This document shows, in pieces, positions 12,800 to 60,335 of a DNA stretch of 64,000 nt. Origin of the DNA: Mustelus asterias. Lineage: Eukaryota. The notes under the pieces were generated by a model, which saw only the letters and a list, made by a program, of their open reading frames with translations, ran no database searches and was not told the origin of the DNA. Each line of letters opens with the position of its first letter. Positions within the stretch are counted from its first letter, which is position 1. The position numbers were made by a program, and so were the translations under genes. The stretch spans positions 7,936,001 through 8,000,000 of the forward strand of contig NC_135822.1 of the NCBI RefSeq assembly GCF_964213995.1, written 5' to 3'.

Positions 12800-12859
12800 G
12801 ACCACCCCTCCACCTTCAGTACCATGCCCAATGGCCATTATCCACATATGTTTTTTAAA

Positions 12860-13375
12860 ATGAGTTTGATGGGACAGGAACAGGCTGACTCAATGGGCCT
12901 ACCGGGGTAGTCCTTTTTGTGACTTTTGGGAAGGAGGTAGAAGCAGGCTGTCCAGGGTTGGAAGACTGAGGTTGAAGGCTGTGGAGGGAAGATCTCCTGA
13001 GGAGATAAGGTCATTGACAGTCCTGGAAACAGTGGCTTGATGTTCGGTGGTTGGGTCGTGGTCCGGGGGAGGTAGGAGGAAGTATGCGAGAGTTGGCGCT
13101 CAGCCTCTACAAGGTAAAGGCTCTTGTGCCAGACAACTGCCCTCGTCGGCGGGTTTGATAACCAGGTCAGGATTGGACGTAAAAGAGTGAAGTGCAGCAA
13201 GTTTGGAAGGAGATAAGTTAGTGGGTGAGAGGAGCGGAGAAATTGTTTCATGCCGCCAATTCGCGATGAAAAGATCAAGAGCAGGTAAGAGGCCAGAGGG
13301 AGGGGTCCAGGTGGAGGGGGAATGTTGGAGGTGGGTGAAAGGATCTGCTGAATGGGGGGAGGACTCCTGCCCAAA
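12860..13375 (-). pseudogene. Penelope-like element reverse transcriptase N-terminal fragment (frameshifted)
   Basis: AVVW...LYLVEAERQLS.TSSYLP and FYLLPKSHKKDYPGRPIESACSCP are PLE RT motifs (Y.LPK.HK...P.RPI.S). Confidence 0.88.
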
Positions 13376-13387
13376 GAAGTGAGCATG

Positions 13388-13505
13388 CAGACTCGAAACG
13401 TTGGCTCTATCCTCTCCCCACAGATGCTGTCAGACCTGCTGAGATTTTCCAGCATTTTCTGTTTTTGTTTTTCCGATTCCAGCATCTGCAGTATTTTGCT
13501 TTTAT
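13388..13505 (+). mobile_element. Penelope-like family A pLTR 3' part, inverted relative to the adjacent RT
   Basis: gactcGAAACGTTggctct (3' half of the hammerhead), cacagatgctgtcagacctgctgagattttccagc and tail. Confidence 0.85.
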
Positions 13506-14061
13506 CCACGTGTTATTTAATGGTGAATCTTGGCATATTATTCACCCACGGGGTATTATCCCAGTTGAATCTGGCCCTTTCCCTGCCCATTAGTCACAAA
13601 TGTGCACTTTTAGGATGGATAGCTGGGGCAGGAACAAGATCTGGTTGATTTTCTTTCTGCTTAAAATTCATTAACTTGGCAGAGATTAGACTTTGAACTT
13701 GGGGCCGTCTTTGACTGTAGGTCTCAGCTACCAATTGGATGAACTTGGTTATTGGTTACCTAGATAATTTATCAAGTTTTAATCCATTCCTCTTTTAACA
13801 AAAGTAAAAAAATTGCTTTTGCAGGCCTTGGTCGGTGTAGGATTTTTGAAATTTGGGATTTTCCTTTATTATGACACAATTGTGATTACATACATATTAA
13901 CTAAGAGTCAGTTAAATATTTAAAGCTGAAGATGGCATGGATTTTTGTTGGATGCCTGTTTTTGAGCAGAGTTCTAGTATATACATGTCCTACACAATGA
14001 CTTTTGTTATTCTGCCAGCTGGTAATGTTTTACCTTGCAGGAATCACAAATCATTATAATT

Positions 14062-20641: not shown

Positions 20642-22068
20642 AACAAAGAACAAAGAACAATACAGCACAGGAACAGGCCCTTCGGCCCTCCAAGCCCGCG
20701 CCGCTCCCCGGTCCAGGATTGAATCCTGAATCCAGGATCCCCGCCAAATTTTCCAGCCTATCTACATACCAATATCCTATCCACCGAGCTGTCCCCCACA
20801 GCTACGATGCTTTGTTCATTACAACCTATTAACTCACCCCCACCCCCCCATTCCAGACCATGTGATCTCCAGGGAGAGGCGAAAACCCAGAGTGAAAAAC
20901 CCCAGGGCCAATATGGGGAAAAAAAAATCTGGGAAATTCCTCTCCGACCCCCTGAGGCGATCGAAACGAGTCCAGGAGATCACAATGGCCCTGATCGGAA
21001 AATGCTTCCCAACCCTAGTCATTTCCACTTCCACGAGAAACAAGGAACAATTAGCCCGCGCCGCTCCCTGGTCCAAACTAGACCACTCTTTTGTATCCCT
21101 CCATTCCCACTCCGTTCATATAGCTGTCTAGATAAGTCTTAAACGTTCCCAGTGTGTCCGCCTCCACTACCTTGCCCGGCAACACATTCCAGGCCCCCAC
21201 GACCCTCTGTGTGAAATATGTCCTTCTGATATCTGTGTTAAACCTCCCCCCCTTCACCTTGAACCTATGACCCCTCGTGAACGTCACCACCGACCCGGGG
21301 AAAAGCTTCCCACCGTTCACCCTATCTATGCCTTTCATAATTTTATACACCTCTATTAAGTCTCCCCTCATCCTCCGTCTTTCCAAGGAGAACAACCCCA
21401 GTTTCCCCAATCTCTCCTCATAACCAAGCCCCTCCATACCAGGCAACATCCTGGTAAACCTCCTCTGTACTCTCTCCAAAGCCTCCACGTCCTTCTGGTA
21501 GTGTGGCGACCAGAACTGGACGCAGTATTCCAAATGCGGCCGAACCAACGTTCTATACATCTGCAACATCAGACCCCAACTTTTATACTCTATGCCCCGT
21601 CCTATAAAGGAAAGCATGCCATATGCCTTCTTCACCACCTTCTCCACCTGTGACGTCACCTTCAAAGATCTGTGGACTTGCACACCCAGGTCCCTCTGCG
21701 TCTCTACACCCTTTATGGTTCTTCCATTTATCGTGTAGCTCCTCCTTACATTATTCCCACCAAAATGCATCACTTCGCATTTATCAGGATTGAACTCCAT
21801 CTGCCATTTCCTTGCCCAAATTTCCAGCCTATCTATATCCTTCTGTAGCCTCTGACAATGTTCCTCACTATCTGCAAGTCCTGCCAGTTTTGTGTCGTCC
21901 GCAAACTTACTGATCACCCCAGTTACTCCTCCTTCCAGATCATTTATATAAATCACAAACAGCAGAGGTCCCAATACAGAGCCCTGCGGTACACCACTAG
22001 TCACAGGCCTCCAGCCGGAAAAAGACCCTTCCACTACCACCCTCTGTCTTCTATGACCAAGCCAGTTC
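20642..22068 (-). mobile_element. Young 5'-truncated CR1 LINE with long 3' UTR
   Basis: Uninterrupted RT ORF, ~430-nt 3' UTR, terminal stem-loop gggccgaagggcctgttcctgtgctgt and (TTCTTTG)n tail. Confidence 0.96.
20858..20988 (-). ncRNA. Putative structured 3'-UTR RNA element, double-ENE-like (two U-rich internal loops)
   Basis: RNA sense GGAGAGG-AAUUU-CCCAGA-U9-CCCCA-UAUUGGCCC-UGGGG-UUUUUCAC-UCUGGG-UUUUCG-CCUCUCC (20945-20873) inside outer stem GUGAUCUCC/GGAGAUCAC; the stems are seen directly, ENE function is inferred. Confidence 0.65.
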
Positions 22069-23414: not shown

Positions 23415-23432
23415 CTCTGACTTATGTACCTC

Positions 23433-23690
23433 GTTTAAAGTTTATTTATTAACGTCACAAGTCGGCTTACATTAACACTGCAATGAAGTTACTGTGAACA
23501 TCCCCTAGTTGCCACATTCTGGCACCTGTTCGGGAACACTGAGGGAAAATTTAGCATGGCCAATGCACCTAACCAGCACGTCTTTCAGATTGTGGGAGGA
23601 AACCCACGCAGACGCGGGGGAGAACAGTGATCCAAGCCGGGAATCAAACCTGGGTCCCTGGTGCTGCACTAACCACTGTGCCACTATGCC
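23433..23690 (-). mobile_element. V-SINE with Rex1-like tail
   Basis: Same head and tail as 18512-18784. Confidence 0.9.
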
Positions 23691-24359
23691 TCCCCTATAA
23701 ACTAGAAAATGGTTTTTGCTTAACCGAGTCTGATTTTAAGATTTTCAGTAATTTGGGTACACTTGTACTGCTTGGTGGAGGAGAGCAGAGATATTGCAGT
23801 ATAGTTTCTGATACTATACTGCAATAAGTATATGAAATTAAATATCAACATCCTTATGGCGTTAAAGACCTCTCTAGGTAATGCATTTTTTCTTCTGTTT
23901 GGTTCATTCCTTTGTTCTGTGCCGAGCTGGTCACAAATTGCTCAAGTTGTTTTCATGGATTGCACTCTGTGGATCATAGATGTTATATTGGTGCTACTGA
24001 CTTATTTAAGCTGAATTTTCCCAATTACAGCAGGTTGTGTGCTATATGGTACAGCAGCATTCGGAGGTTTACAAAGATAAATTCTAAATGCTCTGAGCCA
24101 ATACAATTGATTTCACTGAAAAAGTGTTCATCATCCACTATCTGCAGATATTACCCACAAGCAACAATTTAATCAAGCAACTTGATTGCATTTTCCCTGT
24201 GCAAGGAACTTCAAGGTAAACTTCAAGAAAAAAGTGGAAATTTAATTTCAGACTTCAAGGAATGAGTGGACACTCTCCTGTTTCATAAGAAAATAATGTG
24301 GCTGTTTCTTTAAATATGTAGCAGTGGTTTGAAGGGTGCGTTTACGCTATAACTATTGA

Positions 24360-52274: not shown

Positions 52275-52544
52275 AGTGGATATCTGCTCACAAACAAGGC
52301 ACACAGAGACACAAACTCAAGTTACAGAATACTGATTAGAATGTGAATCCTTACAGCTAATCAAGTCTTAAAGATACAGACAATGTGAGTGGAGGGAGCA
52401 TTAGGCACAGGTTAAAGAAATGTGTATTGTCCCCAGACAGGACAGCCAGGGATTCTGCAAGTCCAGGAGGCAAGGTGTGGGGGTTACCGATAGTGTGACA
52501 TGAACCCAAGATCCCGGTTTAGGCCGTCCTCATATGTGAGGACG

Positions 52545-52919
52545 GCCATCATCTCACGTGAGAACACCATCTACCAGGTACACGGTACCTACTCTTGCAA
52601 CTTGGCCAATGTTGTCTACCTGATACGCTGCAGGAAAGGATGTCCCGAGCCATGGCACATTGGGAAAACCATGCAGACACTACGACAACAGATGAATGAA
52701 CACCGCTCGACAATCACCGGGCAAGACTGTTTTCTTCCTGTGTGGGAGCACTTCAGCGGTCACGGGCATTCAGCCTCTGATCTTCGGGTAAGCGTTCTCC
52801 AAGGCGGCCTTCACGACACACGACAGCGCAGAGTCGCTGAGCAGAAACTGATATCCAAGTTCCGCACACATGAGGGCGGTCTAAACCGGGATCTTTGGTT
52901 CATGTCACACTATCGGTAA
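52545..52919 (+). pseudogene. PLE GIY-YIG endonuclease domain (5'-truncated ORF end)
   Basis: YSCNLANVVYLIRCRKGCPEPWHIGKT...EHFSGHGH...RRVAEQKLISKFRTHEGGLN. Confidence 0.92.
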
Positions 52920-57466: not shown

Positions 57467-57660
57467 CAAAAAGCAGAAAATGCTGGAAAATCTCAGCAGA
57501 TCTGACTGCATCTGTGGAGAGAGAATACAGCCAGCGTTTCAAGTCTGGATGACCCTTCATCAGAGCCCTCGCTCCACAGATGTTGTCAGACTTGTTGAGT
57601 TCCCCCAGCATTTTCTGTTTTTGTTTCAGATTCCAGCATCCACAGTATTTTGCCTTTATC
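57467..57660. mobile_element. Penelope-like family A fold-back insertion with hammerhead on the minus strand
   Basis: Inverted arms; minus-strand CTGATGA(57563)-agggtc-atcca-gactt-GAAA(57537)-cgct; TSD tgatattttt(a/g)tt at 57454-57466 and 57661-57673. Confidence 0.9.
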
Positions 57661-59981: not shown

Positions 59982-60335
59982 TTCTCTGACGAAGGGTCAC
60001 CCAGACTCAATGTTGGCTCTATTCTCTCTCTGTAAGAAGTCTAACAACACCAGGTTAAAGTGCCGATTCTCTCCACTTGGAGCCGGCAGTTTGCGGTGTC
60101 GATGGTAGTCATGATGTGGAGATGCCGGCGTTGGACTGGGGTAAACACAGTAAGAAGTCTAACAACACCAGGTTAACCTGGTGGTATCAGACTTCTTACT
60201 GTGTTTACCCTAGTCCAACGCCGGCATCTCCACATCATGTCTATTCGCTCTCCACAGACACTGTCAGACCTGCTGAGATTTTCTAGCATTTTCTGTTTTT
60301 GTTTCAGATTCCAGCAACCGCAATATTTTGTTTTT
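59982..60335 (+). mobile_element. Penelope-like family A pLTR interrupted by a family B insertion
   Basis: CTGACGA-agggtc-accca-gactc; outer TSD aactataata (59972-59981, 60336-60345). Confidence 0.88.
60031..60239. mobile_element. Penelope-like family B insertion containing a 130-bp spacerless palindrome
   Basis: Palindrome 60110-60239 centred on GGTTAACC; TSD tctattc(t/g)ctctc at 60018-60030 and 60240-60252. Confidence 0.9.

What the first reader, a model, noticed from the sequence alone, without database searches (positions are those of the whole stretch)
20858..20988. Double-ENE-like triple-helix element in the 3' UTR of a young CR1 LINE
Seen: in the LINE-sense RNA (minus strand) three perfect helices (GGAGAGG/CCUCUCC, CCCAGA/UCUGGG, CCCCA/UGGGG) are separated by two U-rich internal loops (AAUUU/UUUUCG and U9/UUUUUCAC). 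The rod sits on a 9-bp outer stem (GUGAUCUCC/GGAGAUCAC) with a possible side arm, giving a three-way junction. Established: U-rich internal loops flanked by short helices define ENEs (KSHV PAN, MALAT1, NEAT1), which clamp an A-rich 3' end in a U-A.U triple helix and slow decay. Double-domain ENEs are known from plant and fungal transposon RNAs. Inference: this CR1 subfamily may stabilise its transcript, or position its 3' end for reverse transcription, with a double ENE. No genomic A-tract lies downstream, so the partner would be an added poly(A) tail even though CR1 insertions end in (TTCTTTG)n. I am not aware of an ENE described in a vertebrate CR1 but cannot check the literature here.
Basis: partly seen in the sequence, partly recalled or inferred. 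Interest (0 to 1): 0.82.

Follow-up and report, generated by a model that had tools for sequence, protein, structure and literature searches.

The report
Poly(A)-clamp-like hairpin in shark-type retrotransposon
The tail of a jumping-gene copy from a shark- or ray-like genome carries an RNA hairpin shaped like the clamps some viruses and plant transposons use to protect their poly(A) tails, but it is known here from one copy only and its function is untested.

Summary
On the LINE-sense strand, 20858-20988 folds into three Watson-Crick helices separated by two U-rich internal loops on a three-way junction (z -4.8). Both loops have ENE polarity: the U-runs abut a C-G-opened upper stem and the 3' strand has a 2-3 nt linker. 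This double pattern occurs once in the window and in 0 of 150 shuffled windows under each of four nulls. It lies in a composite 3' UTR of an elasmobranch-type CR1, between a hairpin-less relic tail and a decayed RT fragment plus the working tail. Best reading (about 0.5): a convergent ENE-type clamp for an added poly(A) tail, mainly through the upper loop. Against: no homologue could be obtained, so covariation is untested; a G-U-rich fold is within 0-2 kcal/mol in longer contexts; the lower loop allows at most three triples; plant dENE hallmarks are not evident; five other CR1 copies in the window lack the rod. A role in positioning reverse transcription is not supported. My paper searches listed no LINE-borne ENE, but the key 2016 survey could not be read.

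The parts
21078..22066 (-). 5'-truncated CR1 ORF2 (C-terminal RT half and C-terminal domain), 325 codons without stop or frameshift, TAG at 21080-21078
   Evidence: RVT_1 E 1.4e-14; nearest named eukaryote proteins are elasmobranch, 64-68% identity; 5' junction near 22066, no target-site duplication seen
21053..21075 (-). first copy of a 23-nt direct repeat (start of the ancestral short UTR)
   Evidence: 22 of 23 identical to 20715-20693
21039..21051 (-). relic of the terminal tail repeat; the RT-recognition hairpin that should precede it is missing
   Evidence: 12 of 13 match to the terminal tail; 3 such matches in both strands of the window, one being the tail itself
20862..20983 (-). outer 9-bp stem (20983-20975 / 20870-20862) closing a three-way junction
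20945..20963 (-). side-arm hairpin of the junction
   Evidence: pair probabilities 0.80-0.98 in the 131-mer
20873..20945 (-). ENE-like rod: lower stem, lower loop AAUUU/UUUUCG, 6-bp central stem, upper loop U9/UUUUUCAC, 5-bp upper stem, 9-nt apical loop
   Evidence: (72-mer alone: z -2.71, 1 of 200 shuffles as stable)
20714..20861 (-). decayed, non-coding relic of CR1 RT sequence, collinear with ORF2 21943-21785
   Evidence: score 53 against 25.6 +/- 3.2, 0 of 500 shuffles; 107 identities, 35 mismatches, 23 gap positions
20693..20715 (-). second copy of the 23-nt direct repeat
20674..20688 (-). terminal CR1 hairpin (GGGCC-GAA-GGGCC motif), the likely ORF2 recognition site, shared with other CR1 tails in the window
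   Evidence: role inferred from L2 elements
20643..20662 (-). terminal (TTCTTTG)2 repeats; no poly(A)

Best explanation
The rod is an ENE-type RNA stability element in the 3' UTR of one elasmobranch-type CR1 lineage, evolved convergently or captured. Shown: the fold, the two U-rich loops, their polarity and their sense orientation in the UTR. Inferred step 1: the parent element's intronless Pol II transcript reads through the repeats and is polyadenylated at a downstream genomic signal, since the UTR has no AATAAA or ATTAAA and no A-tract. Inferred step 2: the poly(A) tail folds back into the rod, forming up to five U-A.U triples in the upper loop and up to three in the lower, with A-minor contacts to the G-C pairs under the lower loop. 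Inferred step 3: this binding tips a near-balanced folding equilibrium toward the rod and slows deadenylation, giving more RNA for translation and reverse transcription. Reverse transcription still primes at the terminal repeats beyond the rod, so the rod is copied and the poly(A) is not. The rod probably entered by 3' capture: the first tail lost its hairpin, which forced priming from a more distal tail and made everything between heritable. This copy lacks its 5' end and promoter, so any function belongs to the parent element.
For: Architecture far beyond chance. In all three mixed loop strands the U-run abuts the upper stem (about 1 in 36 given contiguous runs; loop boundaries come from the fold, so this is approximate), and both upper stems open with C-G pairs, as in KSHV PAN, MALAT1 and TWIFB1 (by eye). 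U opposite U on both arms cannot come from a plain inverted duplication, which would put A opposite U (inference). The rod has 0 G-U in 17 core pairs while the adjacent RT relic has 23 gap positions in 165 columns, which suggests selection on the rod in a lineage where neighbouring UTR decayed. G-C pairs flanking the U tracts are required for the Evade triplex (PMC12501189) and flank three of the four loop ends here. ENE deletion lowers Evade RNA stability and copy number. The competing fold rests on G-U pairs (32 of 119); without G-U the rod has P 0.99 in 4 of 4 contexts.
Against: One copy only: no homologue in the window or eight fetched loci, GTDB, plasmids or phages, or through translated frames, so covariation and U-run conservation are untested. 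With normal energy rules the rod is 0-2.2 kcal/mol above the best fold at 37 C and 0.2-4.8 above at 15 C; P(core) is 0.15 or less in every unrestricted context that includes 80 nt or more of ORF2, and 0.01-0.49 with pair span limited to 150 nt. A 4-6 kcal/mol bonus is needed to restore it. The upper loop has the longer strand on the 5' side (9 against 8), the reverse of KSHV and TWIFB1, and is closed below by A-U. The lower 5' strand has only three U. No Rfam family matches. Five other CR1 copies in the window and six complete GTDB-borne CR1 tails lack the rod, so CR1s do not need it. Polyadenylation of this family's RNA is assumed. The reverse strand folds almost as well (z -4.06 against -3.89), so energy alone does not fix the strand.
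Confidence: 0.5

Rival explanations
1. The rod is a selected structure but works as a protein-binding platform (the element's own ORF1 or ORF2 protein, or a host U-rich or pyrimidine-tract binder) for packaging, export or protection of a long 3' UTR from decay, without a triple helix.
For: Non-random, pure Watson-Crick fold; a three-way junction and side arm that the KSHV and TWIFB1 constructs lack; U9 is longer than the five opposing U can use; L2 tail stems contain functional U-U mismatches without a triplex (PMC1636434).
Against: Protein binding does not explain why U-runs face each other flush to C-G-opened stems in both loops. The known ORF2 binding site of stringent LINEs is the terminal hairpin, which is present separately.
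Confidence: 0.2
2. The rod is a real ENE of another RNA (for example an LTR element, retrovirus or lncRNA end) that was captured into the UTR and rides along without benefit to the CR1, or the composite formed once at this locus by template switching.
For: The UTR is plainly composite: two 23-nt repeats, a relic tail and an RT relic. The rod does not align to ORF2 (1026 of 2000 shuffles score as well). The two repeats are 22 of 23 identical, which fits a recent join. Fish retroviral ENEs exist.
Against: Loss of the first tail's hairpin and the gapped RT relic beside an intact ORF2 point to changes in a parent lineage rather than in this copy (inference); perfect helices would erode if unselected.
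Confidence: 0.15
3. The rod is a chance or minor fold of a G/U-rich strand; the RNA mostly adopts the competing structure and the U tracts are ordinary homopolymer runs.
For: P(core) as low as 0.00-0.15 in long contexts; whole-UTR folding z only -1.35; single U-rich loops are common (18 sites, two of them focal); the finding was picked after the fact from 128 kb.
Against: 0 doubles in 150 shuffled windows under each of four nulls; 0 of 3000 run-preserving shuffles; the competitor is 27% G-U and partly uses ORF2 sequence that ribosomes would clear; P is 0.97 for the UTR alone.
Confidence: 0.12

Closest known systems
Double-domain ENE of plant and fungal transposons (rice hAT TWIFB1; Arabidopsis Copia93/Evade)
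   Same: Two U-rich internal loops on one rod in the 3' UTR of a transposon RNA; added poly(A) as the presumed partner; the 3' strand G-U5 plus 3-nt linker of the upper loop here mirrors the TWIFB1 lower domain (by eye).
   Different: Host is a non-LTR CR1; central stem 6 bp against 10; lower stem not interrupted by a bulge or loop; lower loop U3/U4; no evident adenosine triad or pocket; sits on a three-way junction; no sequence likeness seen by eye.
KSHV PAN ENE (single domain)
   Same: G-C-rich stem below and CC/GG above the loop, with a 2-nt linker on the 3' strand: the lower loop has this frame.
   Different: PAN has U5/U5 and one domain; here the lower loop has two A in place of two U, and a second loop is stacked above.
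MALAT1 / MEN-beta ENE
   Same: U-rich loop flanked by short stems, in a vertebrate.
   Different: [quoted passage not shown] Here there is no A-tract, no tRNA-like gene and no Rfam match.
Canonical CR1 LINEs of elasmobranchs (HER1 is named for sharks and rays in PMC3747384; its sequence was not compared)
   Same: ORF2 C-terminus, terminal hairpin, short tandem-repeat tail without poly(A), 5' truncation. Among CR1-group elements only Zenon has a poly(A) tail (PMC13343379).
   Different: The 3' UTR is about 435 nt and composite, against roughly 70-170 nt without the rod in the five other window copies (by eye).

Membership tests
ENE (general) | [quoted passage not shown] | tested here: met
   met in the isolated element and the UTR alone, not in all longer contexts
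ENE (general) | Upper stem opens with C-G; 3' strand U-run follows G and ends in a 1-3 nt linker | tested here: met
   both loops; the feature was read by eye from KSHV, MALAT1 and TWIFB1 sequences
ENE (general) | G-C pairs directly below the loop (A-minor receptor) | tested here: inconclusive
   met for the lower loop; the upper loop is closed by A-U then G-C
ENE (general) | 3' strand longer than 5' strand | tested here: inconclusive
   lower loop 5/6 met; upper loop 9/8 not met; U9 may be a slippage expansion in this copy (unverified)
ENE (general) | Sense orientation near the transcript 3' end | tested here: met
   about 90 nt after the stop and 215 nt before the element end; the distance to the real poly(A) site is unknown
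ENE (general) | Covariation and conserved U-runs among homologues | not testable with these tools
   no homologue obtained
ENE (general) | Binds poly(A) as a triple helix and stabilises a reporter | not testable with these tools
   bench test
Plant/fungal dENE | Two domains joined by a short duplex | tested here: met
   6-bp central stem
Plant/fungal dENE | [quoted passage not shown] | tested here: not met
   definition from PMC7583470; here a 2-nt linker and a continuous 6-7 bp stem
Plant/fungal dENE | Adenosine triad and 3'-A pocket | tested here: inconclusive
   defined only in a review; primary papers not held; no matching arrangement seen by eye against TWIFB1
MALAT1-type ENE | [quoted passage not shown] | tested here: not met
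CR1 LINE | CR1-type RT, 3' hairpin and tandem-repeat tail | tested here: met
   no tree was built

The most novel reading that the evidence does not exclude
This is the first ENE in a non-LTR retrotransposon: a shark-type CR1 lineage gained, by 3' capture, a two-loop clamp that folds only when its own added poly(A) tail docks. The clamp stabilises the RNA and parks the tail out of the way while reverse transcription starts at the internal repeats, giving a role to a poly(A) tail that never appears in CR1 insertions.
Probability: 0.3. Interest if true: 0.82.

Novelty: new variant of a known kind. Interest (0 to 1): 0.6.

Why it matters
The reviews I read place transposon ENEs in plant, fungal and slime-mould LTR and DNA elements and in stickleback retroviruses; none names a LINE. 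CR1-group elements fill 22-34% of elasmobranch genomes (PMC13343379). A clamp in a CR1 UTR would show convergent use of the triple helix in a vertebrate LINE. It would make testable how LINEs without a poly(A) signal or an inserted poly(A) tail keep their read-through RNA stable, and whether rod-bearing families out-replicate rod-less ones in the same genome. It could also add a new two-loop, three-way-junction scaffold for RNA stabilisation. If it fails the tests it is an ordinary structured patch in a composite UTR.

Tried and rejected
Homologue hunting gave nothing. Window BLAST and nhmmer found only tail matches. A single-sequence covariance model over the window and eight loci had a best non-self score of 14.6 bits, E 0.27. 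A 23-nt motif scan of GTDB gave 0 matches. An ORF2 profile scan of GTDB gave 8 loci from 28 candidates, 7 of them CR1-like at 46-53% identity; six have complete short tails, one is cut by the contig end, none has the rod. Plasmids and phages gave no match. Antisense frames over the element gave 0 hits, 2 repetitive hits at 30-33% that I rejected as unrelated and no Atlas hit. A cluster look-up of four hits could not be made. Rfam gave 0 at gathering score and 3 chance hits at E 1.2-6.8. A paper search with a 13-nt motif gave one unrelated plant paper. Supplementary Table 2 of PMC13343379 holds catshark CR1 consensuses, but only their first 400 nt are visible, so the 0 motif hits there say nothing. 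Tycowski 2016, Torabi 2021 (PNAS) and Zhang 2017 are not held. Viral and metagenome contig collections stayed unchecked, and no animal genome collection was available. Rejected ideas: the rod derives from RT coding sequence (a gappy alignment did not survive); a MALAT1-type end; a plain inverted duplication; a role in RT positioning. No host gene was found: 62 of the 143 ORFs of 75 aa or more were scanned against Pfam with 0 hits, which would miss short exons.

Full report
Observation. It folds into a 9-bp outer stem, a three-way junction with a side arm, and a rod of three helices separated by loops AAUUU/UUUUCG and U9/UUUUUCAC. MFE is -56.7 kcal/mol, z -4.84, 0 of 200 shuffles as stable. The 17 core pairs are all Watson-Crick with probabilities 0.85-1.0. 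A double U-rich loop arose in 3 of 3000 dinucleotide shuffles and 0 of 3000 shuffles that keep homopolymer runs; single loops arose in 125 and 140 of 3000. Folding 3194 windows over both strands gave 18 U-rich loop sites, and only the two focal ones formed a double. A stricter descriptor found the two focal loops as the only Watson-Crick hits in the window (four more singles elsewhere when G-U is allowed) and 0 doubles in 150 shuffled windows under each of four nulls. That descriptor was written after seeing the element and was not run on known ENEs; by eye KSHV PAN and the TWIFB1 upper domain would pass and the TWIFB1 lower domain would not.

Host element. The rod lies in the 3' UTR of a 5'-truncated CR1. 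ORF2 runs 325 codons unbroken to a stop at 21078. The nearest named eukaryote proteins are from sharks and rays at 64-68% identity, among the 120 hits listed of 5880, so the genome is probably elasmobranch (inference). CpG o/e is 0.54 in ORF2 against 0.34 in the window, consistent with a young copy. The copy has no promoter, so function would belong to the parent element.

The UTR is composite. A 23-nt repeat follows the stop (21075-21053) and recurs before the terminal hairpin (20715-20693), 22 of 23 identical. After the first repeat comes a 12-of-13 match to the tail repeat, with the hairpin missing. After the rod, 20861-20714 aligns collinearly with ORF2 21943-21785 (score 53, 0 of 500 shuffles; 107 identities, 35 mismatches, 23 gap positions). 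Other CR1 copies in the window are 67-71% identical to this ORF2 with few gaps, so the relic may come from another subfamily, but its gaps show long non-coding decay. The rod itself is not ORF2-derived (1026 of 2000 shuffles score as well). The simplest history is 3' capture: an old tail lost its hairpin, priming moved to a distal tail, and the sequence between became heritable. A one-off chimera at this locus is not excluded. Five other CR1 copies in the window have short UTRs without the rod, as do six complete but distant CR1 tails found as contaminants in GTDB. I recall similar long UTRs in other shark CR1 families; this comes from no call and is not counted as evidence.

Comparison with ENEs. 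From the sequences in the PMC10855403 supplement (by eye), KSHV PAN, MALAT1 and both TWIFB1 domains have U-runs flush against an upper stem that opens with C-G, and a short linker at the 3' end of the 3' strand. Both loops here follow that polarity (about 1 in 36 by chance for three strands with contiguous runs). Departures: the lower 5' strand has three U, the upper 5' strand is the longer one, the upper loop is closed below by A-U, the central stem is 6 bp against 10, and the lower stem is not interrupted as the dENE definition requires. The adenosine triad and pocket are not evident. There is no A-tract, tRNA-like element or Rfam match. So the rod plausibly works like an ENE but should not be filed in the plant dENE or MALAT1 families.

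Evidence against the fold. In longer contexts a competing structure is within 0-2.2 kcal/mol at 37 C and is favoured by 0.2-4.8 at 15 C; P(core) falls from 0.95 to 0.02-0.15 as ORF2 sequence is added, and is 0.01-0.49 with pair span limited to 150 nt. The competitor pairs the apical loop with the 5' flank, U9 with GGAGAGGAA, and ORF2's end with the 3' arm. It has 32 G-U in 119 pairs against 1 in 39; without G-U pairs the rod has P 0.99 in 4 of 4 contexts, and a bonus of 4-6 kcal/mol on the loop U raises it to 0.29-0.95. The whole UTR has z -1.35. The reverse strand folds about as well, so the sense reading rests on LINE orientation and polarity.

Mechanism. Most likely (0.5): read-through CR1 RNA is polyadenylated downstream (inferred); the tail docks in the loops as U-A.U triples, chiefly the upper one (inferred by analogy; the upper domain gives most activity in TWIFB1); docking favours the rod and slows deadenylation (inferred from Evade). 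Reverse transcription uses the terminal hairpin and repeats as in L2 elements, independent of the rod. Rivals are a protein platform (0.2), a captured passenger or local chimera (0.15) and a chance fold (0.12).

Homologues. None was obtained, so covariation, the decisive computation, was not run. The catshark CR1 consensuses in the PMC13343379 supplement could settle it, but only their first 400 nt were visible. Viral and metagenome contig collections stayed unchecked.

Literature seen. PMC12501189: part 1 of 5 of the text, passages and supplement passages. PMC13541005: passages and section 9. PMC7583470: passages and section 13. PMC10855403: passages and the supplement text. PMC3747384, PMC10078130, PMC4176376, PMC1636434: passages. 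PMC13343379: passages and supplement rows. Tycowski 2016, Torabi 2021 and Zhang 2017: nothing. Searches listed no ENE in a LINE or CR1; I saw only the top 25-30 titles where more papers matched (104, 66, 47, 80 and 56), and the library lacks most subscription papers. Tycowski 2016 surveyed the eukaryotic genomes then available and may hold a LINE entry that I could not see.

Verdict. A real and statistically unusual ENE-like rod in a composite CR1 3' UTR; a new variant of a known kind if functional, on one copy and with no functional or comparative proof. Interest 0.6.

Noticed in passing
window 60112-60240: Near-perfect long inverted repeat, the most stable hairpin in the window (-113.8 kcal/mol per 130 nt); by eye it sits inside an element whose right end resembles the inverted ends at 57471-57620.
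   Followed up: no
window 57471-57620: About 150-bp element with long imperfect terminal inverted repeats, MITE-like by eye.
   Followed up: no
window 23432-23699 (-): SINE-like repeat with more than ten partial copies across the window at 72-92% identity.
   Followed up: no
window 20596 (-): AATAAA about 50 nt past the CR1 tail in the flank; it would polyadenylate a read-through RNA of this copy close to the rod if the copy were transcribed.
   Followed up: partly
window 20991-20986 with 20910-20905 (-): The apical loop is complementary to the 5' flank of the rod (6 perfect pairs) and forms part of the competing fold; this could be a switch or chance.
   Followed up: partly
P0001, P0003: Best protein hits are labelled Klebsiella pneumoniae and Proteus mirabilis on 1.6-1.7 kb contigs at 69% identity; probably elasmobranch CR1 contamination in bacterial assemblies (inference).
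   Followed up: no
L001-L007: Seven short GTDB contigs carry animal CR1 3' ends, six with tandem-repeat tails, i.e. contamination in bacterial genome records.
   Followed up: partly
window 52494-52919 (+) and 12838-13512 (-): Open frames that look like Penelope-type retroelement fragments (GIY-YIG-like and RT-like motifs, recalled, from no call); Pfam gave no hit at E 0.001.
   Followed up: partly
window 20740-20712 (-): Small palindromic hairpin with a local duplication at the join between the RT relic and the second repeat.
   Followed up: no
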